The notes below the pieces were generated by a model. That model did not search any database. It was not told the DNA's origin and saw nothing but the letters and a program-made list of their open reading frames with translations. Both the position numbers and the translations under genes were made by a program. Below are positions 1 to 15,400 of a stretch of DNA of 43,281 nt, piece by piece (position 1 is the stretch's first letter; each line of letters begins with the position of its first letter). The stretch comes from a virus (Duplodnaviria > Caudoviricetes): IMG/VR virus record IMGVR_UViG_3300017645_000047, positions 1 through 43,281 of that record. One strand, written 5' to 3'.

Positions 1-67
1 AAATGCAGAAGTCACCCAGGCTGAAAGCGGCGGAAATACTCGGGCTGCGAGAGCTTCTGGAAAAGAA

Positions 68-123
68 TGGTGCGGACGGAGAGACTCGAACTCTCACAGC
101 TTGCGCCACCGGAACCTAAATCC
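68..123 (-). pseudogene. 3' half of the interrupted host tRNA-Leu(UAG), left attachment junction
   Basis: Minus strand reads GGATTTAGGTTCCGGTGGCGCAAGCTGTGAGAGTTCGAGTCTCTCCGTCCGCACCA (anticodon loop, long variable arm, T arm, CCA); phage DNA, not a D arm, lies upstream. Confidence 0.93.
112..123. repeat. att core, left copy (GAACCTAAATCC)
   Basis: Identical to 43159-43170; corresponds to the tRNA anticodon stem-loop. Confidence 0.93.
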
Positions 124-195
124 AATGGCCGGGGCAGTATCGCAGAAAAACTTGAGGAAAAACAGTGACTTAAGAAAGGAGCGAGTACCTAAAAC

Positions 196-1260
196 CTATG
201 CCACGACACCTCCATGCCACAACCCTGTGTCACGTGGCACGGCCCGTTCCAGCACCGTAATCGCCTCAGAGAGGTTCTGCGGGCACAGTTTGGCATAACG
301 CTGCGTGACTGTAATCTGTTTATGCCCTGCCAGCTTCTGGATGACCTCAATCGGCACGCCACGCTGCACCAGCCGCGAGCAGTAGGTGTGTCTCAGGGTG
401 TGGAAGATGAAGCCAGCGTCTTGCATTTTTCCCAGGTGACGACGCATGGTCGTCCAGTGGTGATCGACAGCATCCTTGGAGACAGGGAACAGGCGACCGT
501 CCTCGATCTTGGCGTACTTGATCCGACGAATTGCAGCCGCACGAGCGCGGGCAGTCATCGGGACATGGTGCTCGTTCTTGGCTTTCATCACAGAGCCAGG
601 GAGGCGAATCCAAGAGGTCTGGTCTATGTCGGCGATGTCGAGGTGCTCCACACGCAGAGCACGCAGGGTGCCCATACGGAGGCCGGTGTCGATTGCCAGG
701 ATCACCATGTCGACGTACATGTGCTTACCCACATGCTCGAAGTACTGCAGGATCTGCTGCTCCTCTTCCTCGCTGAAGTAGCGGAGGCGATGCTCCCCCT
801 CCTCCTGCCAGGAGAAGTGCGGCATGGTGAAGACAGTGCCACGCTGAGCCGCCACCTCAAGCATCGTGTGCAGTGCCGACAGTTTCCGATTGACGGTAGC
901 CCCGGTGTTGCCTTTGGCGTACCACTGCTTGATGCACGAGTCGACGTCGATGGTGGTGATCCGGGCGACGTGGGTGTTCTCCCCCAGGACGTCTAGGACA
1001 GCCTTGCCGTTCATTGCCAGCGACTTCGTCTTGTTGAACCAGCGATGCTCGCAGGTGTAGTCATAGGCTTGTTTGAGTGTTACTATCCGCGCCCCAGCTT
1101 TGGAGTCACCCATATCGGGCTGATCCCCACGAGCTAGGGCCGCTTTAGCGTCTGCCTCCCATCTCTCCGCCTCGACCTTGGTGGCGAAGTTGCGACGGTA
1201 ACGCTGACCTCGACTGGTGACGCTCGCTTGCCACGAGCTACCACGTTGATTGACAGGCAT
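196..1260 (-). CDS. int: Tyrosine recombinase / phage integrase
   Basis: Motifs DTGLR, HTLRH, LAGH and RY; ATG at 1260 with AGGAGG RBS; adjacent to att. Confidence 0.95.
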   Translation of the reverse strand: MPVNQRGSSWQASVTSRGQRYRRNFATKVEAERWEADAKAALARGDQPDMGDSKAGARIVTLKQAYDYTCEHRWFNKTKSLAMNGKAVLDVLGENTHVARITTIDVDSCIKQWYAKGNTGATVNRKLSALHTMLEVAAQRGTVFTMPHFSWQEEGEHRLRYFSEEEEQQILQYFEHVGKHMYVDMVILAIDTGLRMGTLRALRVEHLDIADIDQTSWIRLPGSVMKAKNEHHVPMTARARAAAIRRIKYAKIEDGRLFPVSKDAVDHHWTTMRRHLGKMQDAGFIFHTLRHTYCSRLVQRGVPIEVIQKLAGHKQITVTQRYAKLCPQNLSEAITVLERAVPRDTGLWHGGVVA

Positions 1261-1278
1261 AAGCCCTCCTTTTATACG
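1250..1278 (+). promoter_or_regulatory. Putative sigma70 promoter for the phage tRNA
   Basis: TTGACA(1250-1255)-N17-TATACG(1273-1278), ~21 bp upstream of the tRNA; overlaps the int start codon and RBS on the other strand. Confidence 0.6.
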
Positions 1279-1299
1279 CGGTTGGGTTTTCCTTGCCGT

Positions 1300-1384
1300 G
1301 CCCTGATGGTGAAATTGGTAGACACGCAGCACTTAGGATGCTGTGCCTTACGGTGTGTCGGTTCGAGTCCGACTCAGGGCACCA
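1300..1384 (+). tRNA. Phage-encoded tRNA-Leu(UAG)
   Basis: Acceptor stem GCCCTGA/TCAGGGC plus ACCA; D arm TGGTGAAATTGGTAGACAC; anticodon stem CAGCA/TGCTG with TAG at 1334-1336; long variable arm; GTTCGA T loop. Confidence 0.96.
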
Positions 1385-1423: not shown

Positions 1424-1798
1424 TCACTCGCTCTCAGCCTCGACAGCAGCCTCTTCGCTCACGTCCCCTCCATTGAGGAGGCGCGAGAGAGACTCGGCCA
1501 CGCGCTGACCTTTGGGGGTCAAGCGCATGACTTTGCGACGGCGTTCGCGCGGGTCTTCTTCCGCCACGATGAGATCCGGTCCCGGCTCACCATGGCGAGT
1601 CATTTTGGACAGAGCAGCGACGTTGCGCGAGCACGACGCCTGAGAAATGCCGAGCTTTCCGGTCAACTCCTTGGTTGTGATGCCTGGGCGCATGGCCACG
1701 AGCAGCAGGGTTGCAGCGGTTTGCATTTGCATCTCAGGGTCGAACTTGCGGAACTCCTCAAGGAAGAGGAGCCCTTTCATCATCGCCTTCTTGTCCAT
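1424..1798 (-). CDS. MarR-family winged-helix regulator, probable prophage repressor
   Basis: HTH (ITTKELTGKLGISQASCSRNVAAL) and MarR wing (EDPRERRRKVMRLTPKG); AGGAG RBS; upstream of int. Confidence 0.88.
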   Translation of the reverse strand: MDKKAMMKGLLFLEEFRKFDPEMQMQTAATLLLVAMRPGITTKELTGKLGISQASCSRNVAALSKMTRHGEPGPDLIVAEEDPRERRRKVMRLTPKGQRVAESLSRLLNGGDVSEEAAVEAESE

Positions 1799-1967
1799 GC
1801 CTGAGTCTCCTTTCATCTGAAACTATTAAGTGGAACTTCCAAAGCCAGATCAGAGTATCCCTCTCGTCGAGCGCCCAGTCAAGGTATTTATGCACTCGTG
1901 TATCGGAATTGTACTCGAAAAACACGCGGAATCCTAAGATGCGTGGGGAGCAATAAGACAGGTACAT
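1758..1967 (-). CDS. Small hypothetical protein upstream of the repressor
   Basis: ORF with AAAGGAG RBS; overlaps the repressor start. Confidence 0.55.
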   Translation of the reverse strand: MYLSYCSPRILGFRVFFEYNSDTRVHKYLDWALDERDTLIWLWKFHLIVSDERRLRHGQEGDDERAPLP

Positions 1968-2065
1968 GACCACTCCTTTCGTTCTGTCACATGCTTAAGA
2001 GATCTTAATACAGATCAATCCACCAATGTAATAGTCTCGACACAAAGGGCGCAACCTCCTGTCGC

Positions 2066-2797
2066 TCATCCCCTCCCTGACGTCATCCAGAACACCAGCA
2101 GATGACGCTCTCCCTCCTCCACCGGACAGCCCTTGTGCAGCAGCTGGTAGCCGTTGAACAAAAGGGCGTGTCCCTTGGGTATCGATGGGACATGCTCAAA
2201 CGTCCGCAGCCCAGTACGGACGCTGGTTCCACCGCCTTTGTAGCGCTCTGGAGCGAGGTTCACTACGGCGGTCATTGTGCTGTCTTCGTCGTGGTGCCAG
2301 CCGGTGCTTTTCGTCCCTTCAGAGGTGTACTTCGCCAGCTGAATCGAGTCGATTCGGTCAGGTTCACGACCAAAGAACAGCTTGCAGATCGGGTACAGTA
2401 TCTGTACTGAGAATGCCCTTACCGACCTATACAGTAGTGGAATCTTTTCGTGTAGGACGATCTCAGGAATGCGATAGGCATCGTCCTCCTGAAGGTTCGG
2501 CGTCCAGTTTTCTCCGTGCTTGCACACGTAATCGAGCAGCGCATCGCACAAGTCTGGATGCACTAGTGGAACGATTATGACTTGACCATTCGCATGTCTC
2601 GGCAGCCTCTCAAACCACTCCATGGCCTTCAGTTGCCCAGGTGTCAGATCACGCTCGTCCGGCACTTCAGCCAGGGTTTTTTCGAGGTGATCCAGCAGCG
2701 ACAGAAGGTCAGAAATGACGAGGGCCAGCTCCGGGTGGAGCCAGCCCTTCCACGGTTTACTCAGTTCTAGGGGTAGTTGCGTTACCACGTCTTCCAT
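2066..2797 (-). CDS. 2OG-Fe(II) dioxygenase (prolyl/lysyl-hydroxylase-like)
   Basis: HxD (WHHDED), GGGT, distal His (LLHKG), 2OG-binding Arg (GERHLLVFW); start codon uncertain. Confidence 0.85.
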   Translation of the reverse strand: MEDVVTQLPLELSKPWKGWLHPELALVISDLLSLLDHLEKTLAEVPDERDLTPGQLKAMEWFERLPRHANGQVIIVPLVHPDLCDALLDYVCKHGENWTPNLQEDDAYRIPEIVLHEKIPLLYRSVRAFSVQILYPICKLFFGREPDRIDSIQLAKYTSEGTKSTGWHHDEDSTMTAVVNLAPERYKGGGTSVRTGLRTFEHVPSIPKGHALLFNGYQLLHKGCPVEEGERHLLVFWMTSGRG

Positions 2798-2880
2798 AGG
2801 TAGTAGATCCAGACAACGGCGAGTACAGCGCCGGTTGCCAGATCCCACCTGGCTTCGGTGGTAAGCCTTGGTAGCTTCAT
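2782..2880 (-). CDS. Small membrane peptide (32 aa), not in the ORF track
   Basis: MKLPRLTTEARWDLATGAVLAVVWIYYLWKTW; ATGA overlap with the upstream gene; one hydrophobic segment. Confidence 0.5.
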   Translation of the reverse strand: MKLPRLTTEARWDLATGAVLAVVWIYYLWKTW

Positions 2881-3164
2881 GCAGCCAGCTCCTTCATCGC
2901 CTCTTCACGGTTGAACATAAGGAGTCCCTGGGAGATGACCATCATGATGTTCTCGGCGTTGATCAGCCGGTAACCACGGTCGGCCTGGGACCAGATTCGG
3001 TAGTAGGTCTTCGCGCCGTCCTTCGTCTGCTGGACCAGCCCCGCCGCGTTCACGCCGAAGCGGCCATTGATGGTGCGGACGGTGCCGTCGTTCTTACGGA
3101 AGGTGACGGTCAAGAACCGGCCACCAGCGTTCCGAATCACAGCGTCGATCAGTTGGTTTTTCAT
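2877..3164 (-). CDS. Early protein with a possible SH3/WYL(Sm)-like fold
   Basis: FLTVTFRKNDGTVRTING...WSQADRGYRLIN pattern; AGGAG RBS. Confidence 0.6.
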   Translation of the reverse strand: MKNQLIDAVIRNAGGRFLTVTFRKNDGTVRTINGRFGVNAAGLVQQTKDGAKTYYRIWSQADRGYRLINAENIMMVISQGLLMFNREEAMKELAA

Positions 3165-3245
3165 TGAGGTATCTCCTGCTGAGGTTCGAGTGAAACCAGC
3201 GGAGGACTCTCCAGGGTGAGAATCCTCGACTTGTGCCACTCGGGA

Positions 3246-3449
3246 TCAGCCGCGACTCTCATGAGTGCGACGTAATTCAGCCAGCTCGCGCTGCCATGCC
3301 TCTTCCTTGAGGTTGCGGACCTTCCGGTGCGAGCCGAGGCGAATCCTTGAGGGTTGTTCCGGGGAGGCGTAGCGGATGATCTCGCCGCCACGCGCTAAGA
3401 AAGCCCTGGTCTGTTCTTCGATGAGGTTGCGAACAGAGCTGGTGTGCAT
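3246..3449 (-). CDS. Hypothetical early protein
   Basis: 67 aa ORF with AGGAGG RBS. Confidence 0.65.
   Translation of the reverse strand: MHTSSVRNLIEEQTRAFLARGGEIIRYASPEQPSRIRLGSHRKVRNLKEEAWQRELAELRRTHESRG
3259..3276 (-). promoter_or_regulatory. Phage RNAP promoter (variant)
   Basis: ATTACGTCGCACTCATGA, near match to the repeated consensus ATTAGGWCGCACTNATGG. Confidence 0.6.
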
Positions 3450-3479
3450 GTGTTGCCTCCTAGTGCTATCGAATCGGCA

Positions 3480-3707
3480 TCACCAAGTAGTGTCTACGAC
3501 GCCCGATTCAAGCGTGACCTTGGCGAGGTTCGCCGTGGGGATCGAACGAAGTCCGCTTGCCGACTGGACTTCTGCAACTTTTCCGTCACAAATCAGCCGA
3601 CGAACGGTGCCCACGAAGGCGACAACGTCCGGGGCATGTAGCGTTCTGCGGATGACCGCCGCGTTGAAGCAGACGCGGTCTCCCTCGGACAGGACCAGGG
3701 GCATCAT
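3480..3707 (-). CDS. Hypothetical early protein
   Basis: 75 aa ORF, translationally coupled (ATGA overlap). Confidence 0.6.
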   Translation of the reverse strand: MMPLVLSEGDRVCFNAAVIRRTLHAPDVVAFVGTVRRLICDGKVAEVQSASGLRSIPTANLAKVTLESGVVDTTW

Positions 3708-4075
3708 CTCCCCTGCCCCCAGGTCATGACGGTATCCGCCGTCTCGCGCAGCTCCTGGGCGCGACCATTGAAGAAGTCCTCGGCCAGGACGGAGCGCATG
3801 GAAGGCATCACCAACTCGGCGTCCTCCCAGGTGGGTAATAAGCCCAGGGTCGCCGCCTCGGCGGTCTCCCGCGTCAGCGTCATTCCTACCGGGTTACCCG
3901 AGGCTGTGATCTGCGCGATCAGGTAGCCACCACGCCGACCGGCTAATAACCAGTACACGCGGCCCAGGTCGTCGACCTTCAGCCACTTCCCACGGAAGCG
4001 ATCCGCTAATAAGTCGAACGAGTCTGCGGAGTCGCGTAGCTGGGCGATGATCCCTTTGCGATCTACGGTGCTCAT
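3704..4075 (-). CDS. Hypothetical early protein
   Basis: 123 aa ORF with AAGGA RBS. Confidence 0.7.
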   Translation of the reverse strand: MSTVDRKGIIAQLRDSADSFDLLADRFRGKWLKVDDLGRVYWLLAGRRGGYLIAQITASGNPVGMTLTRETAEAATLGLLPTWEDAELVMPSMRSVLAEDFFNGRAQELRETADTVMTWGQGR

Positions 4076-4148
4076 TGGGTTGGTTCCTTGTGTGGTTTAC
4101 GAGTAAAGCCAGCGGAAGGCACCGGCTGATGCCTTCGACTTGCCTTGC

Positions 4149-4325
4149 TCAGGGGATGGACAGTGTCACCACCCAGGCCGGAGGCAATAAGCGGACTCCG
4201 TACCCGGTGTGGATCTGACGGGCAGGAATGCGCCCGACCTTGGCTCTGCCTTGGTGTGCAGCCGCGCGTCGTAATAACGGGACGGTCTCTGCGATGGTCG
4301 GACAGGCGACGCTGTAGCTCTGCAT
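4149..4325 (-). CDS. Small hypothetical early protein (58 aa), not in the ORF track
   Basis: MQSYSVACPTIAETVPLLRRAAAHQG...VVTLSIP with GGAGG RBS. Confidence 0.5.
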   Translation of the reverse strand: MQSYSVACPTIAETVPLLRRAAAHQGRAKVGRIPARQIHTGYGVRLLPPAWVVTLSIP

Positions 4326-4340
4326 GGTTCGCCCTCCCCC

Positions 4341-4484
4341 TCACGCCCAGGACTTGCCCGGACGGCAGTCGGCGGCAGCCATGGCAGCTAAGCGGAAGGC
4401 GAAAGGCGCGTTCATTGCGGCGATGCGGCCCAGCTTCTGAGCCAGGGCGCGGGCTTGTGCGAGTTGGTCTATGCGCTTGGGCAT
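4341..4484 (-). CDS. Small hypothetical early protein
   Basis: MPKRIDQLAQARALAQKLGRIAA..., GAGGA RBS. Confidence 0.6.
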   Translation of the reverse strand: MPKRIDQLAQARALAQKLGRIAAMNAPFAFRLAAMAAADCRPGKSWA

Positions 4485-4560
4485 GGTTGGTTCCTCAGTA
4501 GTGAATCCATCGAGAGCCACCACGCCGGATGGCTCTGAATTGATGCACTAGTGGATACAT

Positions 4561-5289
4561 TCAGGCAGCCGCAATCAGATTGACGTGGCCGTACTTGGCG
4601 ACGTACCGGCTGGACAGGCTGCCGTGGACGTTGATAACCACGGATGCACCGTCACGCCTGGCGCCATTGCACAGCCCGCAATCTGCACAGCTCAGGCCTT
4701 TCGATTCAGCGAGGCATTCCACTTCGCCAGGAAGCATCGGAGCGTCTGCAGTCTTGACGCGGAATGTCCGGCGTCCGTGCGACTGGTGCGCTGCCGCTTG
4801 CTTGGGGGTGTCAGCCGATACCATCACCCACTTCAACAGCTCATGCTGGAAGTTCGCATGGGCAATCTGGTGTGTGTATCCGGTCCAGCTTTCGGCGCGT
4901 TCCAGCACACTCCCCCACACATCGGCGGGAATCGCTGCCGGATCACCATAGGCGCCAAGACGGACTTTCCTTCCGGCGAAGGTCGAAGGGTTCCACTCGT
5001 GGGAGTAGCTCCCGCGCTTGTATGCCTTCCACACCGCCATCGGTGCTTGGCCTACGTTCACATAGCACGCACCGCCGATAGAGCGACGTTGCGGGCATCC
5101 ACCGCAGATCGATGCATCCGCCTTCACGTCCAGGGCTACCAGTGGCGACATATCTGCACGGAGAATCCACGTTTGGGCCACATCGCCGGTCTTGGGGTTG
5201 TTGGTCGACATGGTTGCGATTGCCACGATGGGAGCCCCGTCTAACATCGACGGGCCTTCATAGATGACGTATCCGTTGGGCTTTTTCAT
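4561..5289 (-). CDS. Cys-rich, putative Fe-S (radical-SAM-like) phage protein; first early gene
   Basis: CxxC-x7-CY (CGGCPQRRSIGGACY), RLGAYGDP, WTGYTH and C-terminal C-x7-CxxCxxC; ATG at 5289 with AGGA RBS. Confidence 0.7.
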   Translation of the reverse strand: MKKPNGYVIYEGPSMLDGAPIVAIATMSTNNPKTGDVAQTWILRADMSPLVALDVKADASICGGCPQRRSIGGACYVNVGQAPMAVWKAYKRGSYSHEWNPSTFAGRKVRLGAYGDPAAIPADVWGSVLERAESWTGYTHQIAHANFQHELLKWVMVSADTPKQAAAHQSHGRRTFRVKTADAPMLPGEVECLAESKGLSCADCGLCNGARRDGASVVINVHGSLSSRYVAKYGHVNLIAAA

Positions 5290-5580
5290 AGGTTGGTTCC
5301 TGTAGTAGTTTTTGGCGTTGTATCCATGAGTGGATACCTGTAGGCGCACTAATGCCGCGAATGCGGCTACAGGTAGGCACTCGAAGGGTATCGCCCCCTC
5401 CGCCACCGCCAGGGTGACTTCAGGGGCTTCCCTTGGAGCTAAACCAGCAACTAGGCCCAGTTTCCAGATTGTTAAAGAGCGTTCGAGTCTTGCTAGGGGG
5501 CTGATCTATCCACTTGTGAGAGATCGATCAATCCGTCCGCTTTACCGATTGCACCAGCGTTGGCGCTTTCGATGGGAGCC

Positions 5581-5608
5581 ATTCTATGCACTCGTGGATA
5601 CATGTCAA
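5581..5608 (-). promoter_or_regulatory. Main early sigma70 promoter with an operator in its spacer
   Basis: TTGACA(5608-5603)-N16-TAGAAT(5586-5581); operator ATGCACTCGTGGAT at 5586-5599. Confidence 0.82.
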
Positions 5609-5657
5609 CAGGGGAAACGAAAAAATTTTCAGGCGAGTGGACAGCGATAGGATGGGA

Positions 5658-5705
5658 TCACTAGATGTAGCGATAGGATGGCGACAGGAACACTATATGT
5701 TGTGT
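5658..5705. promoter_or_regulatory. Tandem NrdR-box-like sites
   Basis: TCACTAGATGTAGCGA (5658-5673) and ACACTATATGTTGTGT (5690-5705), 32 bp apart; compare consensus acaCwAtATaTwGtgt. Confidence 0.65.
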
Positions 5706-6039
5706 CTTAAGGAAAAAAATAAGACACCACACCACAAGAGAACGCAGAAGAAAGGCGAGCCAGCCCCCAGCAAGGCAAGTCCCAGGATGCCCCCTTTTGC
5801 TCACCCTTCGGATTCATCATCTAGCGTGGATGCCCGATTTGCGCGGCTTCTGGGCGAGGCGTGGCATTGATGCGTGGAGCGGAGACCGTCCGGAACCCCC
5901 GAAAGCTGGACCGAGCGGGGTGGGTGGAGGGGGGAGCGCCGGTCGAGCCAAAGCGCTTTACCACTTCAAATTTTTGTCGAAAATTCTCCCTGGGTTCAAC
6001 CCGAGCGAATCAGCGAACAGATCACCCCAAGGAGGAACC

Positions 6040-6411
6040 ATGCGACACCTGCTCACCCTCGGAGCAGTCCTACTGTTGGCCGGATGTGCAACCGCAGCGA
6101 AGTACGAGGCTTCCCTGAACACCTACGTGGGGAAACCTGAGTTGGACTTGGTGCGCGACTGGGGAGCGCCCGCTCAGACCTACGAGACTGGAGGCTCGAA
6201 GTTCTTGATGTACAGCTCGCGGAGGACGCTCGTCTTCCCTGGAACACCTCCTACGTACACCACAAGCTACTCCGGCTACCAGGCCTACACGACAACCACT
6301 GGTGGCACCCCACCGGCACGCATACCGATGTCCTGTGAGACGACCTTCGAGGTGATCGATGGAAAGGTCTCATCGTGGACCTACAAGGGGAATGACTGCA
6401 CGGCTATGTAG
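6040..6411 (+). CDS. Lipoprotein moron
   Basis: AAGGAGG RBS; signal peptide with lipobox LLAG-C; opposite strand to the lytic genes. Confidence 0.85.
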   Translation: MRHLLTLGAVLLLAGCATAAKYEASLNTYVGKPELDLVRDWGAPAQTYETGGSKFLMYSSRRTLVFPGTPPTYTTSYSGYQAYTTTTGGTPPARIPMSCETTFEVIDGKVSSWTYKGNDCTAM

Positions 6412-6486
6412 GAAAAGAATGGGGTTAGCAGGAACGCCAACCGTTCGTTTATCCTGCGAGCCCCTATCTCAGGAAGAGACCATTCC

Positions 6487-7488
6487 ATGTTGTCGAAACC
6501 GCTCAAGAGTTTCTTTTATTCAATCACCCTGCTGGCTTGTGTCAGCAGTGTCTTCGCCTCAGAAGCCAATGTGGCCCGGACGAGACTTATCGTACAGACG
6601 GTAATGAACTCCGAGAGTGGGTACGTCAACAAGGATCTCCACGATGAACTCTGGAGAATCACAAAGGCTGAGGTGGGTAACGACCCCTACTCTGTAACTA
6701 AGGTTGCAGAGGCGCTGCAGCAAGTACGAGAAAGGTCAAATGGCTACTCTTTCGAGACGTGGAAGAGCGTGAAGCTGAGCTTTGAACAGCGGAAAGTCGT
6801 CAGGACACCGGGATTTGTCTCAATGTCCTCCAGTATGCGCACGCGAGGGCCAGAGACATCAGCCGCAGTTGACAGTGCAGAGAGCGCCTTAGCAGCAGCA
6901 GCTAACCGAAAGCCTATTACAGCGAACGGCCAGACGGTCTACATCAATCAGGAGCTGATTGAGCGTGTTCTTGGTGGCATCGAGGCCGCGCAAAGCCGAC
7001 TCGACAGGCTCTTAACCCAAGAATGGTCTGAAGAGATGCATGAGCAGAACATTAGTGCTGCGAAGGTCACCATCCTCACTCCAGACTTGTTTACCGTCTC
7101 TAGTCAAAAGATCGACGGTCTTGAAATACCGGCGGTATCCGCTCAACGTAACTATGGGCCTAACGCATCCGAGAGCATTTATTATATGCGCGCCCCAGGG
7201 GCAGGAATGGCTGATCTTACCAAGCGAGCGCAATTAGCTTGTAACGGGGCTTTCAGCTCAATTGGGCTTACCTGCAGGGCCTCGGCGACACAATGGAGAG
7301 GACGGCAGGGACTTACCGCCGCTGAGTCCACAAGCGTCAATGGGAAACCCGTAGGAATGGCGATCACGATTTTAAAGCGTGATCAAGAACACGCACTGCA
7401 AGGGTTTTCCGTCATTACTCCAGGTAGCGCAGCGGATGCCTCACTGGCCTTAGACGAATTGATGGAAAGGGTTAAGGCAGAGGACTAA
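6487..7488 (+). CDS. Secreted/periplasmic hypothetical protein (moron)
   Basis: 333 aa; Sec signal peptide ending VFA-S; lower GC; opposite strand. Confidence 0.8.
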   Translation: MLSKPLKSFFYSITLLACVSSVFASEANVARTRLIVQTVMNSESGYVNKDLHDELWRITKAEVGNDPYSVTKVAEALQQVRERSNGYSFETWKSVKLSFEQRKVVRTPGFVSMSSSMRTRGPETSAAVDSAESALAAAANRKPITANGQTVYINQELIERVLGGIEAAQSRLDRLLTQEWSEEMHEQNISAAKVTILTPDLFTVSSQKIDGLEIPAVSAQRNYGPNASESIYYMRAPGAGMADLTKRAQLACNGAFSSIGLTCRASATQWRGRQGLTAAESTSVNGKPVGMAITILKRDQEHALQGFSVITPGSAADASLALDELMERVKAED

Positions 7489-7579
7489 CTTGCCCGACGC
7501 ATCGGACAGAGAACATCGAACAGAAAGCCTAGAGAAGGTCTTGTATCTATCTATCTATAGATGTTTCTTCAGTCTCCCT

Positions 7580-7597
7580 CCATAGGTGCGTCCTAAT
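7580..7597 (-). promoter_or_regulatory. Phage RNAP promoter after terL (T7 phiOR-like position)
   Basis: ATTAGGACGCACCTATGG. Confidence 0.85.
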
Positions 7598-7661
7598 CGA
7601 TCTCCTTCGATCATGTCGACATCTTGCAAAGATGGAGAGGCACGTCCGTGTGCCATGATCC

Positions 7662-9335
7662 TCACACAACCATCCATGTATCCCCTGCTGAGGACGGTCC
7701 CAGGATGCTCTCCTTGAACTTCCTCAGCTCAGCCTCGAAGAGCTTCTCCTTGTGCTCCTGGGCGGCTTTCTCAGTGTCCCTACCCATCTGGGCTACCCAG
7801 TAGGCAACGGCCCCTGCAAGCGCATCCAGGCGGTCGTCGTGGGTCAACGCACCGCGATCCTTGGTGATCCGGGTGAGCTGGTAGAACAGGCTGTACTTGG
7901 CATCGGGGGCTGAGTCGAAGTCACGCTTGATGAGCGCCTTGTCGATCACCAACCGGTGCTGGTTCAAGACCGGCTCCAGGGTGTCGATGATGCGGCGTTC
8001 CTTCTGGATGTTGACCTTCACCTCCTCCACCGAGCAGGGATGGAACTTGCGCAGCCAGGGCTTCCACAGCTCGGTGAACATGCCATCGCCGAAGTTGGCT
8101 TCGACCAGGGCTTTGTTCACGGAGTGCTTCGCTGCGATCACTGCCAGGGACTTGAGGACTTCCTCGCTGTAGCCACCTGCAAGACCGCCAACGTCGACAA
8201 CGTAGAGCCAGCCGTGGAGCATCTTCACGACGGCATAGGCTGTCTCGTCGCTGCCTCGGCCAGCTGGGTCAACGAACATGACGGAGCCGGTGTACTCGGC
8301 CATGTCGTTCGCCACCCACATGGGACGGTAGTAGCGGTCACCCGACATGCCCACGCACGGGACGTCGTTGATGACGTACTCAGGGCCTGACGACCAGACG
8401 ACCTTCACGGGAGCCATCCGGGTATCCAGGGGCATAACGATCAGGTCTTGGAGCTTCAGCGGGTACTTGTCTTGGTCGCTGAGGCTGGTGTCCAACATGA
8501 ACTGCAGGGCGAAGCCAGAGCGCCCGTAGGAGGCCTCCCGCTCAACGAGGTCTTGGTCGTTGAAGCGCTGCGGATCGGTCACGTCCCGTGGCTTCGATCC
8601 ATGGGCGATCATGTCCATGATGTAGTGCGCCAAACGACCGTTGTACTTGTCGGGGTCGTTGGGGATTCGAGCGGGCCACACCGCGATCTGGTAGCCGCGA
8701 GCTTCCAGCTGGGTGTAGATCGACATCTCGGTCTGCGGGGTGCCCAGGAAGGTGATCTTCCCGCCGGGCTTGATGATCGCGTCGAACTCCTTGATGCGCT
8801 CACTCAGCTGGTCACGCATGACCTGGGTGAGGGAGTTGTTCAGGGACTCGACGTCGTCCGCGATGATCTCGTCGGCACGACTACCGGTGAGCTGGCCGGT
8901 GATACCCACGGACTTCACCGAGGGCGAATGGCTGATACCAGCCGGGCCAACGTCGAACATGATGTTGGAGTTGCGTTGGCCGTCCCTGGGCCGTAGGTGG
9001 GCCAGGATGGGCAGCTCGAAGATCAGCCGCTTGGTGAACGTCGAGAACTGGTCAGCGCGATCCTTCGAGGCCGAGACCACGAGGAAGTTGAGGTTGGGGT
9101 CGAGCAGGAGCCGCCAGCAGACGTAGGCCGAGGTGATCCAGCTCTTACCCACTCCCCGGAACGCCTCGATGACCTTGCGTCGAGGGCCGTGCTGTAGGAA
9201 GTAGGCGATGTCGTATTGAATGGGCGTGGGGTCTGACTTTACTGCCGTGATGGCCCCGGCCTTCCACAGGAACTCCCACACGACGAACAGGAAGTTCCTG
9301 AAGTCCCTCAAGGGGTGAGACTCAGGCAAAGACAT
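7662..9335 (-). CDS. terL: Terminase large subunit (T7 gp19-like)
   Basis: Walker A AFRGVGKS, GSRADEIIADDVE, nuclease DPAGRGSDET and HDDRLDALA. Confidence 0.97.
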   Translation of the reverse strand: MSLPESHPLRDFRNFLFVVWEFLWKAGAITAVKSDPTPIQYDIAYFLQHGPRRKVIEAFRGVGKSWITSAYVCWRLLLDPNLNFLVVSASKDRADQFSTFTKRLIFELPILAHLRPRDGQRNSNIMFDVGPAGISHSPSVKSVGITGQLTGSRADEIIADDVESLNNSLTQVMRDQLSERIKEFDAIIKPGGKITFLGTPQTEMSIYTQLEARGYQIAVWPARIPNDPDKYNGRLAHYIMDMIAHGSKPRDVTDPQRFNDQDLVEREASYGRSGFALQFMLDTSLSDQDKYPLKLQDLIVMPLDTRMAPVKVVWSSGPEYVINDVPCVGMSGDRYYRPMWVANDMAEYTGSVMFVDPAGRGSDETAYAVVKMLHGWLYVVDVGGLAGGYSEEVLKSLAVIAAKHSVNKALVEANFGDGMFTELWKPWLRKFHPCSVEEVKVNIQKERRIIDTLEPVLNQHRLVIDKALIKRDFDSAPDAKYSLFYQLTRITKDRGALTHDDRLDALAGAVAYWVAQMGRDTEKAAQEHKEKLFEAELRKFKESILGPSSAGDTWMVV

Positions 9336-9360
9336 GGGTTGTAAGCTCCACAGAAACGCA

Positions 9361-9422
9361 TAGAGCGTCTCCAGCGAACCCAGCCAGTACCTATGCACTG
9401 GTGGATTGCTGGAGACGCTCTA
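9361..9422. repeat. Long inverted repeat between terS and terL enclosing an operator copy
   Basis: TAGAGCGTCTCCAGC (9361-9375) / GCTGGAGACGCTCTA (9408-9422), perfect 15-bp arms. Confidence 0.85.
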
Positions 9423-9443
9423 CGGGCCTTCTAGGCGGTTTGG

Positions 9444-9677
9444 TTAGTGGTATGCGGGGTCGTTGGGATCGGTGAACGGGAGCTGACTTGCCAGGGAGTT
9501 GGACAGGCGCTCCAGGGAGTTACCGGCAGTCGGGATTGCCTCGATGCCGTTGTCCTTCAAGAACTTGATGGCCTGGGCGAAATCCGAGGCCGTGGCTTGG
9601 CCGGACGTGATCCGTGCCAGCAGTTGTTCACCGACCGCCGAGTGCAGAGCCTCAAGAAGCTCTTTCGGTGCGGTCAC
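9444..9677 (-). CDS. terS: Terminase small subunit (T7 gp18-like)
   Basis: LLEALH...A(I)KFLKDNGIE motif; upstream of terL. Confidence 0.85.
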   Translation of the reverse strand: MTAPKELLEALHSAVGEQLLARITSGQATASDFAQAIKFLKDNGIEAIPTAGNSLERLSNSLASQLPFTDPNDPAYH

Positions 9678-9879
9678 AGGTTTTCTCCTTTCCGAACAGT
9701 GTCTTGATGGCGTCCCGTACCTTGGGCAGGAAGACGATGATCTGGAACACCAGCAGCATGGCGGTGCCGATGAATACCCAGTCCTGCAGGGTGATCCCGA
9801 ACATGGTCATGCCCGAGACACCCACTGGTACGGGGGTGGTGACGAGAGCGGCTTGCTCTGCGGCTTGGCGGACACTCAT
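9652..9879 (-). CDS. Holin (T7 gp17.5 position)
   Basis: Small hydrophobic protein with FGITLQDWVFIGT motif and basic C-terminus; syntenic. Confidence 0.75.
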   Translation of the reverse strand: MSVRQAAEQAALVTTPVPVGVSGMTMFGITLQDWVFIGTAMLLVFQIIVFLPKVRDAIKTLFGKEKTCDRTERAS

Positions 9880-10139
9880 GCAGCCACCTCAGTCGGCTGC
9901 TCCTCGCCGGTAGGCTCTTGTGGAGGCTCTACCAGCTCAAGCAGTCCTACCGGAACCTCATAAGCCACTGGCACTGGTGGGCGCATGTAGCTTACATGGA
10001 GCAGCATCTGCTCCTTCGAGAGGTTTGGGTTCTCTAGGATGTAGAGAGGGATGTCGTGATTGAGGGTTACAAAGCCCCAATCCACGACCATTGTCTTTCT
10101 CTCAGTGTCGACCGAGAGAATCTTAAAGTCGTTCATCAT
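9876..10139 (-). CDS. Hypothetical protein, possibly tail-fibre associated
   Basis: 87 aa ORF coupled to the adhesin gene. Confidence 0.6.
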   Translation of the reverse strand: MMNDFKILSVDTERKTMVVDWGFVTLNHDIPLYILENPNLSKEQMLLHVSYMRPPVPVAYEVPVGLLELVEPPQEPTGEEQPTEVAA

Positions 10140-10963
10140 GCGATTGCTCCTTTGATTTGAGTGGTGTTATTACCTCCGGTGATGCTCACGGTCTTACCGT
10201 TCCTAGCGATGGCTGCTCCAGCAGCACCCCCTGCTGTTGTGCCGTAAACCCAGCCGGTGCCTCCTGCTGTGATATATGAGCCGTTTACACCAGCAGCACC
10301 GTTAGCACCCCCGGCACCGCCAACGGCCTTCCAAGTCTTGCCGGTAAATGTGTAGGTCGCAGAGCCCCCGGCACCCCCAGTCGTGGACGTACCAGGGGAA
10401 CCAACTTGCGTTGTTGTGCCTCCTGCGCCTTCTGCACTACCAGCGCCTCCGCCTCCACTGGCGTTCAGGTTCACAGAGAGGGCTCTAGAGACACAAGATG
10501 CGCCGCCTCCGCCGCCTCCGCCGCCGAAGATGTACCCATTGGTGTTGTCGATGGTGCAGTCCATGTCCGCATAAAGAGCTGTGCCGCCAGCAGCCCCCGC
10601 AACTCCGGGGGTGCCGCCACTGCCGCCTTTACCTCGGATGTACCCTTTGTTGACGATCAGCAGAGTCGAGCCAGCAGGGAAAACCCCGGTACGGAGTGCG
10701 TATGTACCACTACCTGCTGAAATCGTGGCCTGGTTCTCGAAGATGTAGTTCCCAGGTTGGGTTGGGGAACCCATCAGCTCGTAGATGCTTGCAGCGGTTC
10801 GACTTGCGGTATTGATGTAGCGAACCTCGTTCTGCCAAGCACTCCTCCATCCGCCGCTCATGTAACCCCAGAGCTGATCCGCTATTGCCCACGCCCCGTT
10901 GACCTTGACGTGTACCTTGGAGGCAGTCACCCAACTTCCCCCAGCTTTCACGTTAAGTGGCAT
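10136..10963 (-). CDS. Glycine-rich receptor-binding adhesin (T-even gp38-like)
   Basis: IVNKGYIRGKGGSGG...IDNTNGYIFGGGGGGGG polyglycine motifs; Trp-rich N-terminus; follows the tail fibre. Confidence 0.78.
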   Translation of the reverse strand: MPLNVKAGGSWVTASKVHVKVNGAWAIADQLWGYMSGGWRSAWQNEVRYINTASRTAASIYELMGSPTQPGNYIFENQATISAGSGTYALRTGVFPAGSTLLIVNKGYIRGKGGSGGTPGVAGAAGGTALYADMDCTIDNTNGYIFGGGGGGGGASCVSRALSVNLNASGGGGAGSAEGAGGTTTQVGSPGTSTTGGAGGSATYTFTGKTWKAVGGAGGANGAAGVNGSYITAGGTGWVYGTTAGGAAGAAIARNGKTVSITGGNNTTQIKGAIA

Positions 10964-10972
10964 TAAACCTCC

Positions 10973-12340
10973 TCAGTATTGAATCCAGATGTCGCCGTCT
11001 GCTCCACCAGAAGGTGCCGCAGTCGAGATGGTTATGTTCTTGGTTGCCGCGCTTCCTAGACCGGACACCTGGGCAGCCGTGTGGGTGTGACTGGTCGCCG
11101 CTTTACCGTCCAGGGCGGTCTGGAGGCCGCTCACCTCATTGATCGAGTGGGTGTGGCTGGAGGCTGCCTTACCGTCTAAGGCGGTCTGCAGGTCGCTCAC
11201 TTGGTCGATGGTGTGGGTGTGGCTGGAGGCTGCCTTACCGTCGAGCGCGGTCTGCAAACCAGATACCTGGGCAATGGTGTGGCTGTGAGTCGTCGGTGCC
11301 TTACCGTCGAGGGCCGCTTGGGTGGCCGTGGAGACGGGCTTGTCGAGGTCTCGGGTATCGTCAACGTGGCCTAGCCCTAGGTTGCCTCGGGCAGCGGCCT
11401 TATCGGTCAGGTCAGCGAGGTTGTTCGAGTTCTTGGAGAAGTCAGACAGGTCTCCACCAGCGATCTCCTGCACATCCTGCAGCACCTTGTTGACCGTCAC
11501 CTGCAGAGAGCTTGCGGTCTGCAGAGCGCTCGCCGCGTCCTGGGCAGCCGATTCAGCCGCTGCCTCCGCGTCTCGGGCACTTTGCTCCGACTGGTTGGCC
11601 AGATAGGAGGCGTTAGCCGAGTTCTGGAGCGCGGAGTTGGCGGTGGCCAGGGCTTGGTTGGCGGTGTTGGTTGCGGTGGTCGACGCAGTCTCTGCACGCT
11701 CTGCCTGAGCCTTGGCGTTGTCGGCCAAAGTCGATGCGCTATTCGCGGTGCTGCTAGCTGCATTGGCGATACTCACCGCGTTATCCGCCTTGGCGTTGGC
11801 GGAACCAGCCACGGTCTCAGCGTTGTTGGCCTTTGCCAGCGCTTGGTTGGCCGTGTTGTTTGCGTTGGTCGCAGTGCTCACCGCAGAGGTCGCCTTCGAG
11901 TCAGCCGAGTTGGCGGCGTTGGCGGTGCTCACGGCGTTACTTGCGAGGGTCTTCGCCTCATTGGCCGTGGTGGTAGCAGCGTTGGCGGTATCGGTCGCGT
12001 CCTTGGCGAGGCCGTTGGATTCGACAGCCAGGTCATCCGCTTCCTGGGACAGGTAGAAGTTCTGCTTGCTGGCCAGATCGAGCTGGCTTTCAGTGAGCGT
12101 GGAGCCGTCCACGAAGTCCACCAGTAGGGAGTTGCGCTCGGTTACCCGGCGAACCTCGACCTTGGCGCCGATGGCAGGTGCCGTAGTCAACTGGATGGAC
12201 GAGGCCGACAGCCAGGAGAACGTCACGGCTGCGCCGTTCACGGTGACCTTGACGTGATCCTTGGACAGATACGGGAAAGGCACCGAGAAGTTGCGATTAC
12301 CACTGACGCTCTGTGTGTAAGTGACTCGTGCAAGAGCCAT
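10973..12340 (-). CDS. Tail fibre (T7 gp17 N-terminal anchor, coiled coil, HxH repeats)
   Basis: FSVPFPYLSKDHVKV...RRVT anchor domain; Ala/Asn heptads; SHTH repeats. Confidence 0.93.
   Translation of the reverse strand: MALARVTYTQSVSGNRNFSVPFPYLSKDHVKVTVNGAAVTFSWLSASSIQLTTAPAIGAKVEVRRVTERNSLLVDFVDGSTLTESQLDLASKQNFYLSQEADDLAVESNGLAKDATDTANAATTTANEAKTLASNAVSTANAANSADSKATSAVSTATNANNTANQALAKANNAETVAGSANAKADNAVSIANAASSTANSASTLADNAKAQAERAETASTTATNTANQALATANSALQNSANASYLANQSEQSARDAEAAAESAAQDAASALQTASSLQVTVNKVLQDVQEIAGGDLSDFSKNSNNLADLTDKAAARGNLGLGHVDDTRDLDKPVSTATQAALDGKAPTTHSHTIAQVSGLQTALDGKAASSHTHTIDQVSDLQTALDGKAASSHTHSINEVSGLQTALDGKAATSHTHTAAQVSGLGSAATKNITISTAAPSGGADGDIWIQY
11080..11320 (-). repeat. 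About four 66-bp (22-aa) tandem repeats in the tail fibre
   Basis: TTACCGTC recurs at 11103, 11169, 11235 and 11301; unit ALDGKAxxxHTHTIxQVSGLQT. Confidence 0.85.
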
Positions 12341-12355
12341 GCTTTTCCTCCAGAC

Positions 12356-12387
12356 AAAGAAAAGGGCGACACGAAGGCCGCCCCTTA
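12356..12387 (-). terminator. Putative intrinsic terminator between the gp16-like gene and the tail fibre
   Basis: Minus strand AAGGGGCGGCCTTCGTGTCGCCCTTTTCTTT, hairpin plus U tract. Confidence 0.6.
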
Positions 12388-12406
12388 GCGATGGAACGAT
12401 TGGTTG

Positions 12407-15400
12407 TTACTGGTCCCAGAAACCAGCCTTGGCTTGCGCCTGACTGGTGATCGTTTGGATGTACTTCTGCTCAGCCCCAGACTCTTCGCTGATCAGGCGC
12501 ATGAGCGCGGCCTTCCGCAGTTCGTTGATGGTCGAAGACACCTCGGTGACCTTGGCGCCTTTGACCTTGCGGGTGCCGGCGGGCAGAGCGGATTCCAGAA
12601 GAGGCAGCAGGTATTTCTCCGGCTGCAGCTCCCGGTAGTAGCGGTTCCAGCGATCCTGCAGCGTCTCCTTGCCGTCGTCCGTGTAGGTCGTCCGCATGTC
12701 GATGCCGCCCAGGAGCTGGTCGCTGGTGGGTACGTCGAAGGTCACCCCGGTGAGGTGGGATAGCTCGTCCATCTTCGCCAGCACCTTGGCTTGCTCCGGC
12801 GTCATGCCCCGGAGGCGTTCCTCAGGGGTGGACGGCGAGAACATGTTCCACATGGCGCCGGTATCGGTGACCTTCCGTGGGTTTCCCAGGACGTCGTAGG
12901 ACTTGGCCGAGGTGTTGTTCCAGTTGCCCAGCGTTGCCCCTGTGAGGAAGCGCGACTGGACCATCTGCCACCAATCAGCAGGGTCTGTGACGGTTGGGTC
13001 GTTGGACTGAGCGATCTTGGTCATGGTGTTCGGGACCAGCATCTTGAGCTTGTCCCCCACGAACTTGATCAGGCCCGCCTCCCCTCCTCGCTTCTCGTCG
13101 AAGGCGATGTTCCATGTGTCCTGAATACCCTTCAGGCCACTCAGCAGGTTGGCGTCCATGAAGGCCTTGGCGATGGCCCCGGTGCCCACGAAGATGGCGC
13201 CCTGGACCTTCTTCATCTCGTCATCCACGAACTCGCCCTGGCGCTCCCTCACCATAAGTGCGTCGTATCGCTCGAAGGCGTTCACGAGGATCTTCAGCGG
13301 GGTGGCGATGGGGTCCAGGTTCTTGTAGCTGAACGTGGTGCCGTCGCTCATGCGGATGGTGTATGGCTCAGGAAGTGCGCTATCCGTGCGGTTCTTCCCT
13401 TGCTTCCAATCGGAGTAGGCGCCGTCACCTGTGATGTTCCCGCTGGCGTACAAGGACAAGGCTGTGCCGGTAAAGGCCAGCGACATGAGCGCTTCGCCCT
13501 GGGCACGAACCTGGGAGCGTCGACCGTTCTTCCCAGCGAGATCCGCGAGGAAGTTCGGAGCGACGATCTGCAGACCTGGGGTCATGCGGACGCCCTCCTC
13601 GAACACCCGCACGGGGGTACGGAAGAAGAGCTGGCCCAGGAGACGCATCACCGGGGCGCTGTTCACCCACTGCTCGTACTTGTGCGCCCAGTCGGAGACC
13701 GGGAGGCCGAGCATCTTGCTGTCGCCTGTGAAGCCGCGCTTGTAGAGCATGTCCCTGGCGTAATCGAGTGCTTCCTTGTTGGTGCCGTGTCGCAGCGCCT
13801 CGGGGTTCCTCTGCACCTCGTTCTTCACGAACTGCGCCAAGGCTTCCCCGGAGTAGCCCAGGTTCACGCCCTTGTTCACCACGGTACGCACACCAGCCTC
13901 GGTGACATGGGACTCGAAGGCGTTGTCGATGGCCGTCTTGGTTCGCTCAGCGATGTGCTGGTCGATGGCCTTACCCTTCAGCCCCATCTGCACGGCTTCC
14001 TTGTAGGCATCCCCTGCGACTTGGCTGGCGATGAACCCACGGTAGGTGAGCTGCGAGAAGTATTCGTCGGTGGTGTTCAGGATGCGCGGCAGGAAGCGGA
14101 TGATTCCGCCCTTGCGCCCAGTGATCGCCATCTCCCCTTCCATGATCCGCCCGGACTCGCGGGTAAGGATCGACTGCTCGTAGGCAAAGGCAGCCTTGGC
14201 AGCACGGAGAGCCGACATGTTCCCGGCCCGCATCGCCGAGTAGGTTGCAGCCAGTGTCTTCCGGGTCTCAGCCTCGAATGGGTTCGACAGGACAGCATCC
14301 AGGGCTGGCCGGTAGAGCACCTTGAGCATCGGCGGCACGGAGTTCCGCAGCACGGTAACCGGCGAGAACACGTTGGAAATCGACAGCTCGACCAGCTTGT
14401 TGAGGGTGCTGGTGGTGCGCTTGCCCAGGGTATCGGTGGCTTTGTCCTGCAGGATCTTGTCCACCATCCCATCCGCCTCCAGTCCCTTCATGGTGATCAG
14501 CCTTGCGGCCTCCCCCACGTCGCCACTGTCGAGTGCGCCCTGGATCAGTGTGTCGTAGGCGCTGCGGCGGGCTTTCACTGCGGTGTCCTGCTCAGCTTGG
14601 AAGACGCGATCCGCCCAGGAGCTGAGGTCTGTGGTATCCGAGAGGTTTCCCTGGAGGCCCACCTGCCGTTGGCGTAGCAGGTAGCCCGCGTGGGAACCAA
14701 AGGCTTCGTCCAGGGCGCTCAGCGTGTCGAAGGTGCCCTTGAGATGGTCCTGCTTGGCAGCCAGTCGGGACACCTCTGCCGGATCGGTAGCGCGCTGTGC
14801 AGCGGCAACCGTGCGAGCCAGCTCCATGGCTGACCAGTCCCTGGAGAGCTTCAGGCTCATCGCCATCTGCTCATGCTCGGTCACCGTCATCTGATGCTTC
14901 TTCAGCTGGTCGGCAACATCCTGCAGCTGGACGTAGTCCATCCCCTTCAGCTCACGCGCCAGGGTGAAGGCCTTGTTCATGTTCTCCTGCAGGTTCTGCC
15001 GTTGGTACGGGATCGTGGTCTCGGCCTTAGGCAGCGGGAGGTCATGGATGTTGGTGAACTCGAAGAAGTCCCCGGTGGGTGCTTCGTATGGCTTCAGCGC
15101 CTTACCGGGTTCTTCCTGGGGCTTGGGCGCCTCCTGGGCGACCACCGCGGACTCCGGCTTCGCAGGTGCTGCAGGTACATCCTGGGGTGCAGCTTGTGGT
15201 GCAGCTGGGGCCACATCCTGGGGAGCAGCTACCGGGTCGGCTTGAGGCGCATCCTGGGCCACCGGAGCATCCTTGGCAGCCTGATCGGTTGCACTGGTGG
15301 ATACATCCGGGCGCACCGAAGGCGTCTCAGCAGGTGCCGTTGGCGGCTCTACCTTGGGCTTCTTCCACAGCTCAGCCACCTTGGATGCAGCCGCATCCGC

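What the first reader, a model, noticed from the sequence alone, without database searches (positions are those of the whole stretch)
68..1384. Prophage destroys the host tRNA-Leu(UAG) and supplies its own divergent replacement
Seen: joining 43199-43159 to 123-68 through the 12-bp core rebuilds an intact tRNA-Leu(UAG). Neither junction does, because the phage arms carry no duplicate tRNA half. A complete tRNA-Leu with the same UAG anticodon sits at 1300-1384 next to int. Known: most tRNA-targeting elements restore the gene with a long attP duplication; tRNA-dependent lysogeny has been described in actinobacteriophages, and the T7-like Pseudomonas phage LUZ100 is known for temperate features. 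Inference: if the host gene is single-copy, CUA decoding in the lysogen depends on the prophage tRNA, so deletions removing it would be lethal or costly unless excision is precise.
Basis: partly seen in the sequence, partly recalled or inferred. Interest (0 to 1): 0.9.

Follow-up and report, generated by a model that had tools for sequence, protein, structure and literature searches.

The report
T7-like prophage swaps host leucine tRNA
A T7-like virus integrated in a likely Pseudomonas chromosome has cut a host leucine tRNA gene in two and carries its own complete tRNA with the same anticodon, on which the infected cell likely depends; this is a real case of an already described strategy, seen in a new host group.

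Summary
Observation confirmed. A 43-kb T7-like prophage sits in the anticodon loop of tRNA-Leu(UAG) through a 12-bp core. Neither junction is a tRNA, and the rebuilt empty site matches genome G307 at 234 of 234 bases. The phage carries an intact tRNA-Leu(UAG) at 1300-1384. The gene is single-copy by pattern in 33 of 34 genomes of the host genus, including G307; the lysogen's own genome is not held. Among integrase relatives, the att-loop anticodon matches the adjacent tRNA in 34 of 34 loci with a motif. LUZ100 has similar Leu codon use but carries UAA, matching its own att core. A prophage at the same gene that duplicates the 3' half has no tRNA-Leu. Dependence, expression and essentiality are inferred, not shown. 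New here: the host group, the family-wide covariation, a likely anticodon switch, an att site for LUZ100, and five host-genus species whose only Leu(UAA) gene looks mobile-element-derived.

The parts
1..67 (.). host DNA downstream of the split tRNA-Leu(UAG); Leu is the last tRNA of the Arg(UCU)-His-Leu(UAG) cluster in G307/G309
68..123 (-). orphan 3' half of host tRNA-Leu(UAG), including the core (int-side junction)
112..123 (-). 12-bp att core, int-side copy
196..1260 (-). tyrosine integrase, 354 aa, open frame with the conserved R, H-x-x-R, H and Y columns; best hit in the phage collection is LUZ100 int (38.6%)
1250..1278 (+). candidate promoter for the phage tRNA (perfect -35 hexamer, 17 nt, weak -10), read by eye; the scan did not call it
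   Evidence: not reported
1300..1384 (+). phage-borne complete tRNA-Leu(UAG) with CCA, antisense to marR-like and int
1424..1816 (-). MarR-like winged-helix regulator (putative repressor)
   Evidence: phrog_9665 E 2.3e-33; MarR_2 below cut-off; 64% to the G702 homologue
1854..1882 (-). sigma-70-like consensus upstream of marR-like/int (1 found, 0.6 expected by chance, so weak)
1817..42858 (-). T7-like phage body: terminase, tail, internal virion, capsid, portal, RNR, ThyX-like, DNA polymerase, primase/helicase, anti-repressor-like Bro-N protein, amidase, endonuclease, ssDNA-binding protein, RNA polymerase (40333-42858)
43064..43122 (-). palindrome (43064-43081, possible repressor operator) and terminator-like hairpin (43095-43122) between the host tRNA cluster and the phage RNA polymerase gene
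   Evidence: function inferred
43159..43199 (-). orphan 5' half of host tRNA-Leu(UAG), including the second core copy at 43159-43170
43200..43281 (-). host His-Leu spacer and 3' end of tRNA-His

Best explanation
A T7-like prophage lies in the anticodon loop of the host tRNA-Leu(UAG) gene through a 12-bp core, leaves two non-tRNA halves, and carries its own complete tRNA-Leu(UAG), which likely is the lysogen's only reader of CUA codons and so is likely required for the lysogen to live (tRNA-dependent lysogeny). Steps: (1) shown: short core, no restoration at either junction, intact cognate tRNA beside int. (2) Shown by proxy: the target is single-copy in the nearest host genomes. (3) Inferred: the tyrosine integrase makes the crossover, the phage tRNA is transcribed antisense to the marR-int operon, charged by host LeuRS and decodes CUA. 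(4) Inferred: loss of the prophage tRNA is lethal or very costly unless excision is precise. (5) Inferred: the phage tRNA is not a captured piece of the target; it comes from a pool of mobile-element Leu tRNAs and likely had its anticodon switched from UAA/CAA to UAG to follow the att site.
For: Junctions and rebuilt site. Single copy: 33 of 34 genomes of the host genus have one Leu(TAG) pattern match, and G313 has a second, divergent one in a tRNA array. In the family sample 192 of 201 have exactly one match, 2 have two and 7 none. In five genomes I picked because they showed a split tRNA beside a related integrase, the only intact Leu tRNA with the target anticodon is the element's own (5 of 5, plus a second element in G003). 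Covariation: of 162 loci with a usable integrase match, 45 have an adjacent Leu tRNA, 38 have enough downstream DNA, 34 have an att-loop motif, and all 34 match the tRNA's anticodon (20 TAA, 10 CAA, 4 TAG; label shuffles mean 15.3, max 28 in 100,000; background 2 of 134 windows). Sister integrases switch both together: L014 CAA/L093 TAG (99), L094 CAA/L105 TAG (98), L059 TAA/L090 CAA (92) in a quick tree. Control: T7-like provirus G699 targets Leu(TAG) with a 3'-half duplication and has no tRNA-Leu. Codon control: CTA is 4.0% and TTA 0.6% of 944 Leu codons here, against 3.9% and 0.9% of 803 in LUZ100, yet the carried anticodons differ. Structure: 10 stem pairs differ on both sides with none broken, and the D arm is identical to the host's. 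Origin: 58/85 to the target, 71/85 to the L087 Leu(TAA), 69/85 to the L043 Leu(CAA), 68/86 to the LUZ100 Leu(TAA). Experimental precedent in mycobacteriophages (PMC10865867). The E. coli unit holding leuW (UAG) is essential, though leuW was not deleted alone (PMC11480407). That CAG and GAG anticodons cannot read CUA is recalled wobble knowledge.
Against: The lysogen's own genome is not held (G000 is the window alone), so single copy is by proxy. Some hosts do have two copies: the host in L035 and G349. The pattern count misses some genes (no CAG match in G005; intron-bearing genes in G310/G321), and several genomes are drafts or MAGs. Expression of the phage tRNA is not shown, and its promoter was not called by the scan. 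CUA is rare in the host (9 of 870 Leu codons in 17 crudely picked ORFs), so loss might slow growth rather than kill. The att motif was written after I had seen the data, the loci are not independent (three identical integrases), 4 of 38 loci had no motif, and the 117 loci without an adjacent Leu tRNA were not classified one by one. The careful tree did not finish. No stable lysogens of LUZ100 were obtained by its authors.
Confidence: 0.82

Rival explanations
1. The phage tRNA mainly serves lytic growth, supplying CUA decoding for phage genes or replacing a host tRNA cut by an anticodon nuclease; the lysogen tolerates the split gene.
For: Phage ORFs use CTA about four times as often as the sampled host ORFs (4.0% vs 1.0%). 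The phage loop differs from the host's at both flanking loop positions. PMC10865867 raises defence evasion as an added benefit.
Against: LUZ100 has the same codon profile but carries UAA, matching its own att core. G699 restores the gene and lacks the tRNA. The anticodon follows the att core in 34 of 34 loci.
Confidence: 0.08
2. The lysogen has another route to read CUA (a second gene copy elsewhere, or enough wobble from other Leu tRNAs), so the phage tRNA improves fitness but is not required.
For: Own genome not held. Second copies exist in L035's host, G349 and G313. CUA is rare.
Against: One copy in G307 and G309, the closest genomes. No tandem copy in the window's flanks. The E. coli unit holding leuW is essential.
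Confidence: 0.08
3. The tRNA is an inert remnant picked up by imprecise excision from an earlier integration, as proposed for LUZ100.
For: Proposed in PMC10134795. The tRNA lies next to int.
Against: It is only 58/85 identical to the target and closer to Leu(UAA/CAA) genes of other elements. It is full length with all stems paired, antisense, and on the far side of int from the att core. The same layout recurs across distant relatives.
Confidence: 0.02

Closest known systems
tRNA-dependent lysogeny of actinobacteriophages (Fionnbharth, LeBron, Gaia; Guerrero-Bustamante and Hatfull 2024, PMC10865867; abstract and sections 10 and 11 read)
   Same: Tyrosine integrase, short core (8-17 bp there, 12 here) in a tRNA gene, no reconstruction, cognate tRNA in the phage; close relatives either restore the gene or carry a tRNA.
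   Different: Shown by knockout there, inferred here. Here the host is a gammaproteobacterium, the phage is T7-like and the target is Leu(UAG).
Rhizobium T7-like temperate phages vTRX32-1 and RHEph01 group (PMC8631192; passages read)
   Same: Autographiviridae-type phage, 12-bp core in a tRNA-Leu that shares 10 consecutive bases with the core here, and a phage tRNA-Leu lacking the core, 'presumably replacing' the host gene.
   Different: Alphaproteobacterial host; integrases about 33% identical. I saw no copy-number count, covariation or knockout in the passages read.
HTVC019P-group pelagiphages (bioRxiv 10.1101/410191; sections 10 and 11 and passages read)
   Same: T7-like, attP between int and RNA polymerase. 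HTVC025P (Leu-TAG), HTVC119P and HTVC200P (Leu-TAA) and HTVC019P (Cys) split the host gene, and the phage tRNA is 'likely used instead'.
   Different: SAR11 hosts. Restoring members there use a 5'-half duplication; G699 here uses a 3'-half duplication.
Pseudomonas phage LUZ100 (OP329100; PMC10134795, passages read)
   Same: Same marR - antisense tRNA-Leu - int - RNA polymerase layout; best integrase hit in the phage collection.
   Different: Carries Leu(UAA). Its authors read the tRNA as an excision remnant, gave no attP in the passages read and obtained no lysogens. Provirus G702 shows both junctions of a LUZ100-like phage in host Leu(UAA), with a 9-bp core also present after LUZ100 int.
Sinorhizobium meliloti phage-related elements (PMC11476347; passages read)
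   Same: Host tRNA-Leu(UAG) inactivated by integration and replaced by a divergent element-borne copy (at most 80.6% similar).
   Different: Alphaproteobacterial host; element type not checked here.

Membership tests
tRNA-dependent lysogeny | Tyrosine integrase with attB overlapping a host tRNA gene | tested here: met
   PF00589 E 1.5e-22; junctions in tRNA-Leu(UAG); the catalysis itself is inferred
tRNA-dependent lysogeny | Short (~10 bp) common core, no tRNA rebuilt at either junction | tested here: met
   12-bp core; ARAGORN finds nothing at either junction or attP at 90% threshold
tRNA-dependent lysogeny | Phage encodes a complete tRNA of the same isotype | tested here: met
   1300-1384 Leu(TAG); all stems paired
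tRNA-dependent lysogeny | No other host copy of the disrupted tRNA | tested here: inconclusive
   Met by proxy in G307, G309 and 33 of 34 genus genomes; the lysogen's own genome is not held
tRNA-dependent lysogeny | Phage tRNA is expressed and functional in the lysogen | tested here: inconclusive
   One RNA-run contig covers 94-1848, but contigs give no strand or level
tRNA-dependent lysogeny | Phage tRNA is required for lysogen survival (knockout gives clear plaques) | not testable with these tools
   Needs genetics; shown only for mycobacteriophages
Temperate T7-like phages (Autographiviridae type) | Single-subunit RNA polymerase and T7-like replication and virion genes in T7 order | tested here: met
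   phrog_414 E 1e-277 and T7-type modules; order as in LUZ100
Temperate T7-like phages (Autographiviridae type) | MarR-like regulator and integrase next to the RNA polymerase in the excised form, att between int and RNAP | tested here: met
   marR-like 1424-1816 and int 196-1260 at one end, RNAP 40333-42858 at the other
Temperate T7-like phages (Autographiviridae type) | Direct terminal repeats, inducibility, virions | not tested
   No attP junction was seen in the runs laid; terminal repeats not sought
Canonical tRNA-restoring integrative elements | attP duplicates one half of the target tRNA | tested here: not met
   Only 12 bp are shared; contrast G699, which duplicates the 3' half

The most novel reading that the evidence does not exclude
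Replacement Leu tRNAs form a shared mobile pool whose anticodon is switched to follow the att site, and they can outlive their element and become the host's permanent gene. In five species of the host genus (G307, G308, G309, G311, G317), the only Leu(UAA) gene has left the Gly-Cys-Leu operon, matches the LUZ100 tRNA at 93-95% against 74-78% for the operon type, and lacks the first base of the LUZ100 core. That would be the domesticated end state of tRNA-dependent lysogeny and might bar that att site to LUZ100-like phages. The window's prophage would be the UAG version at an earlier stage, in the same host species.
Probability: 0.3. Interest if true: 0.65.

Novelty: new member of a known kind. 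Interest (0 to 1): 0.36.

Why it matters
It extends tRNA-dependent lysogeny, proven only in actinobacteriophages in the papers I read, to T7-like phages of a likely Pseudomonas host, where knockouts are easy. It offers a reason why nominally lytic T7-like phages carry a single tRNA-Leu, and a testable attB (Leu-UAA loop) and role for the LUZ100 tRNA, which its authors read as a remnant. It also suggests that the tRNA acts as a built-in retention marker for the prophage. The concept itself is published, also for T7-like phages, so the surprise is moderate.

Tried and rejected
Single-protein integrase scan of viral contigs found nothing; the alignment worked. The genome scan's best 80 loci held no record titled Pseudomonas. 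An RNA polymerase search matched 4 of 401 family genomes; no Leu(UAG/UAA/CAA) tRNA was found in the stretches fetched from two of them, and I did not follow them up. A pattern for the phage tRNA found no other viral contig. Expression: RNA run X8 has one contig over 94-1848 that ends near the predicted marR promoter, but it is one study and contigs give neither strand nor level, so I do not count it. In isolate run X4 no contig showed the uninterrupted gene while X6, X8 and X9 did, but contigs do not prove absence. No attP junction was seen in any run laid. 'The phage tRNA lacks the core to avoid self-integration' holds here (5-nt shared run) but is not general: runs reach 13 nt in L093 and L029. 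Arm-type repeats: only one 9-mer repeat in the arms, uninformative. The apparent lack of Leu(UAA) in G310, G321, G334 and G336 is not evidence that the tRNA is dispensable: G310 has a group I intron in the loop (RF00028 E 4.4e-7, below the gathering score), G321 shows a near-identical insert, and G334 and G336 remain unresolved. No integrase remnant was found near the lone Leu(UAA) of G307/308/309/311/317; the tblastx hits were chained noise. The tRNA tree has too few columns to fix the direction of transfer. Reassembly of the two halves in trans was considered and rejected as unsupported. Paper searches showed no paper reporting this prophage, a LUZ100 attB or a family-wide covariation; the library lacks most subscription journals, and supplements (att-site tables of the pelagiphage preprint, Rhizobium Fig. 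S2) were not seen.

Full report
Observation. The window is a whole virus record with short host flanks. Its two ends share one 12-bp core, at 112-123 and 43159-43170, found only twice in the window. Removing the 43,047 bp between equivalent core positions gives an 85-nt tRNA-Leu(TAG). The left junction, the right junction and the in-silico attP give no tRNA even at a relaxed ARAGORN threshold. The rebuilt 234-nt site is identical to genome G307 and 232/234 to G309. There the cluster is Arg(TCT)-His-Leu(TAG) with Leu last, so no downstream tRNA is cut off. Contigs of runs X6, X8 and X9 show the uninterrupted form. A complete tRNA-Leu(TAG) lies at 1300-1384.

What the element is. PHROGs and Pfam show a T7-like phage: RNA polymerase at 40333-42858, T7-type replication and virion genes, a tyrosine integrase at 196-1260 and a MarR-like gene at 1424-1816. 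The best integrase hit among 565 matching phage records is LUZ100 (38.6%), which has the same marR - antisense tRNA-Leu - int - RNAP layout but with anticodon TAA. I infer Pseudomonas from the LUZ100 relation and from the tRNA cluster, whose likeness to the PAO1 cluster is recalled. A terminator-like hairpin at 43095-43122 would shield the RNA polymerase gene from the host tRNA promoter (inferred).

Is the host gene single-copy? The lysogen's genome is not held. A Leu(TAG) pattern gave one match in 33 of 34 genomes of the host genus, including G307 and G309; G313 has a second, divergent copy in a 12-gene tRNA array. In a family sample of 201 genomes, 192 had one match, 2 had two (G349 a true tandem pair, G344 one spurious-looking) and 7 none; 46 matched strings were not printed and at least one single match looks spurious. 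Exceptions exist: the host in L035 has a second copy downstream. The pattern misses some genes, and many assemblies are drafts. In E. coli the transcription unit holding leuW (UAG) could be deleted only with a complementing plasmid; leuW was predicted essential but not deleted alone (PMC11480407, passages).

Comparative tests. Integrase relatives were fetched from viral and genome contigs. Of 162 loci with a usable match, 45 have a Leu tRNA beside int, either upstream antisense or downstream sense. Of these, 38 have at least 60 nt downstream, 34 carry an anticodon-loop motif outside any tRNA, and all 34 match the carried anticodon (20 TAA, 10 CAA, 4 TAG, the window included). Shuffled labels gave a mean of 15.3 and at most 28 in 100,000. 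The motif was defined after inspection, the loci are related, and the other 117 loci were not classified one by one. A quick integrase tree (the careful one did not finish) shows sister pairs that switch tRNA and core together: L014/L093, L094/L105, L059/L090. In five genomes chosen for having a split tRNA beside such an integrase, the only intact Leu tRNA with the target anticodon lies in the element. Orphan 5' halves were found for four of the six elements, and the G001 junction is not restored. The control points the same way: T7-like provirus G699 uses Leu(TAG), repeats the 3' half at its far end and has no tRNA-Leu. Leu codon use is nearly the same in this phage and LUZ100 (CTA 4.0 vs 3.9%, TTA 0.6 vs 0.9%), yet they carry UAG and UAA. 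Provirus G702 shows that LUZ100-like phages split Leu(TAA) at a 9-bp core that also follows LUZ100 int. The anticodon therefore follows the att site, not codon use.

The phage tRNA. Of 27 differences from the host gene, 20 form 10 compensated stem pairs, 2 flank the anticodon and 5 lie in the variable arm; the D arm is unchanged. It is closer to Leu(TAA/CAA) genes of other elements (71/85, 69/85, 68/86) than to its target (58/85). This argues against an excision remnant and for an anticodon switch, though an 87-column tree cannot prove it. A candidate promoter at 1250-1278 was read by eye and not called by the scan. Expression was not shown.

Mechanism. Shown: the short core, the split, the cognate tRNA. 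By proxy: single copy. Inferred: Int-mediated crossover, antisense transcription, charging, CUA decoding, and lethality or high cost on loss. Confidence 0.82. Rivals are a lytic or anti-defence role (0.08), redundancy in the lysogen (0.08) and an inert remnant (0.02).

Comparison with what is known. PMC10865867 defines and proves tRNA-dependent lysogeny in mycobacteriophages. It was already proposed for T7-like phages: the Rhizobium group with a 12-bp core in tRNA-Leu (PMC8631192) and pelagiphages HTVC025P, 119P, 200P and 019P (10.1101/410191). Replacement of Leu(UAG) is reported in Sinorhizobium (PMC11476347). The LUZ100 paper reads its tRNA as a remnant and got no lysogens (PMC10134795). PMC13015707 only restates the concept in the passages read. 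Earlier notes of this scan hold several like cases (unchecked AI notes). This is a new member of a known kind: three sequence criteria are met, two are inconclusive and the defining knockout is untestable here.

The boldest reading. In G307, G308, G309, G311 and G317 the only Leu(TAA) match is 93-95% identical to the LUZ100 tRNA. In the four checked it lies 3-7 kb from tRNA-Cys, antisense to it in G311 and G317, with no operon-type Leu after Cys. The same tRNA family occurs in an island of G268 beside another integrase and a host 3' half, and in a second element that split a LUZ100-like phage's own tRNA in L087. A mobile origin with later domestication fits, but no element remnant was found and host-to-phage capture is not excluded. 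Probability 0.3.

Verdict. Real, well supported by comparison, mechanistically known; interest 0.36.

Noticed in passing
G307:C55:174453-174539 (L231:9954-10040); also G308, G309, G311, G317: The only tRNA-Leu(UAA) found is 93-95% identical to the LUZ100 phage tRNA and stands apart from the Gly-Cys operon; possible domesticated replacement tRNA, or the donor of the phage gene.
   Followed up: partly
run X4 laid on window 63-3000 and 39500-43277: The same phage (99% or more alike) in a different host allele: the 3' half and His-Leu spacer carry the G306-type differences, but the 5' half lacks G306's three differences (43171, 43173, 43187), so the junction looks chimeric; route unexplained.
   Followed up: partly
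L087:3758-3985: A LUZ100-like phage's own Leu(UAA) is split at its loop by a second element that brings another Leu(UAA), the closest relative (71/85) of the window's phage tRNA.
   Followed up: partly
L265 (G268:C100:64034-67061): A long ORF that reads like a different integrase (not scanned), a Leu(UAA)-type tRNA of the same family, and an orphan host 3' half about 390 nt downstream: an island that seems to use the same strategy.
   Followed up: partly
L001 (LUZ100) about 3915-3924; L006:1440-1480; L258: The LUZ100 attP core can be placed after int, matching both junctions of provirus G702 in host tRNA-Leu(UAA).
   Followed up: yes
L246:1495-1805 (G310), L247 (G321): tRNA-Leu(UAA) interrupted in the anticodon loop by a group I intron-like insert (RF00028 E 4.4e-7, below the gathering score); G334 and G336 have no Leu(UAA) match at all.
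   Followed up: partly
G315, G322, G205 (35-44 kb apart), G312: Second partial matches to the Leu(UAG) 3' end suggest ordinary restoring elements at the same gene; the G315 stretch has no T7-like genes.
   Followed up: partly
G003 (L094, L105): One Ferrovibrio MAG holds two sister elements, so both its Leu(CAA) and Leu(UAG) matches are element-borne.
   Followed up: partly
window 43064-43081: [quoted passage not shown]
   Followed up: no
window 5797-7488 (+): Two plus-strand ORFs (204 and 333 aa) next to the terminase gene, against the phage's direction, with no Pfam match; possible lysogen-expressed cargo.
   Followed up: no
window 27397-30552 and 36880-37593: Ribonucleotide reductase subunits separated by an endonuclease VII gene, and a Bro-N anti-repressor-like gene; LUZ100 keeps only a short RNR piece.
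   Followed up: no
L234 (G313:C18:112300-115500): An array of 12 tRNA genes, including Leu TAG, GAG and CAA, probably on a mobile element.
   Followed up: no
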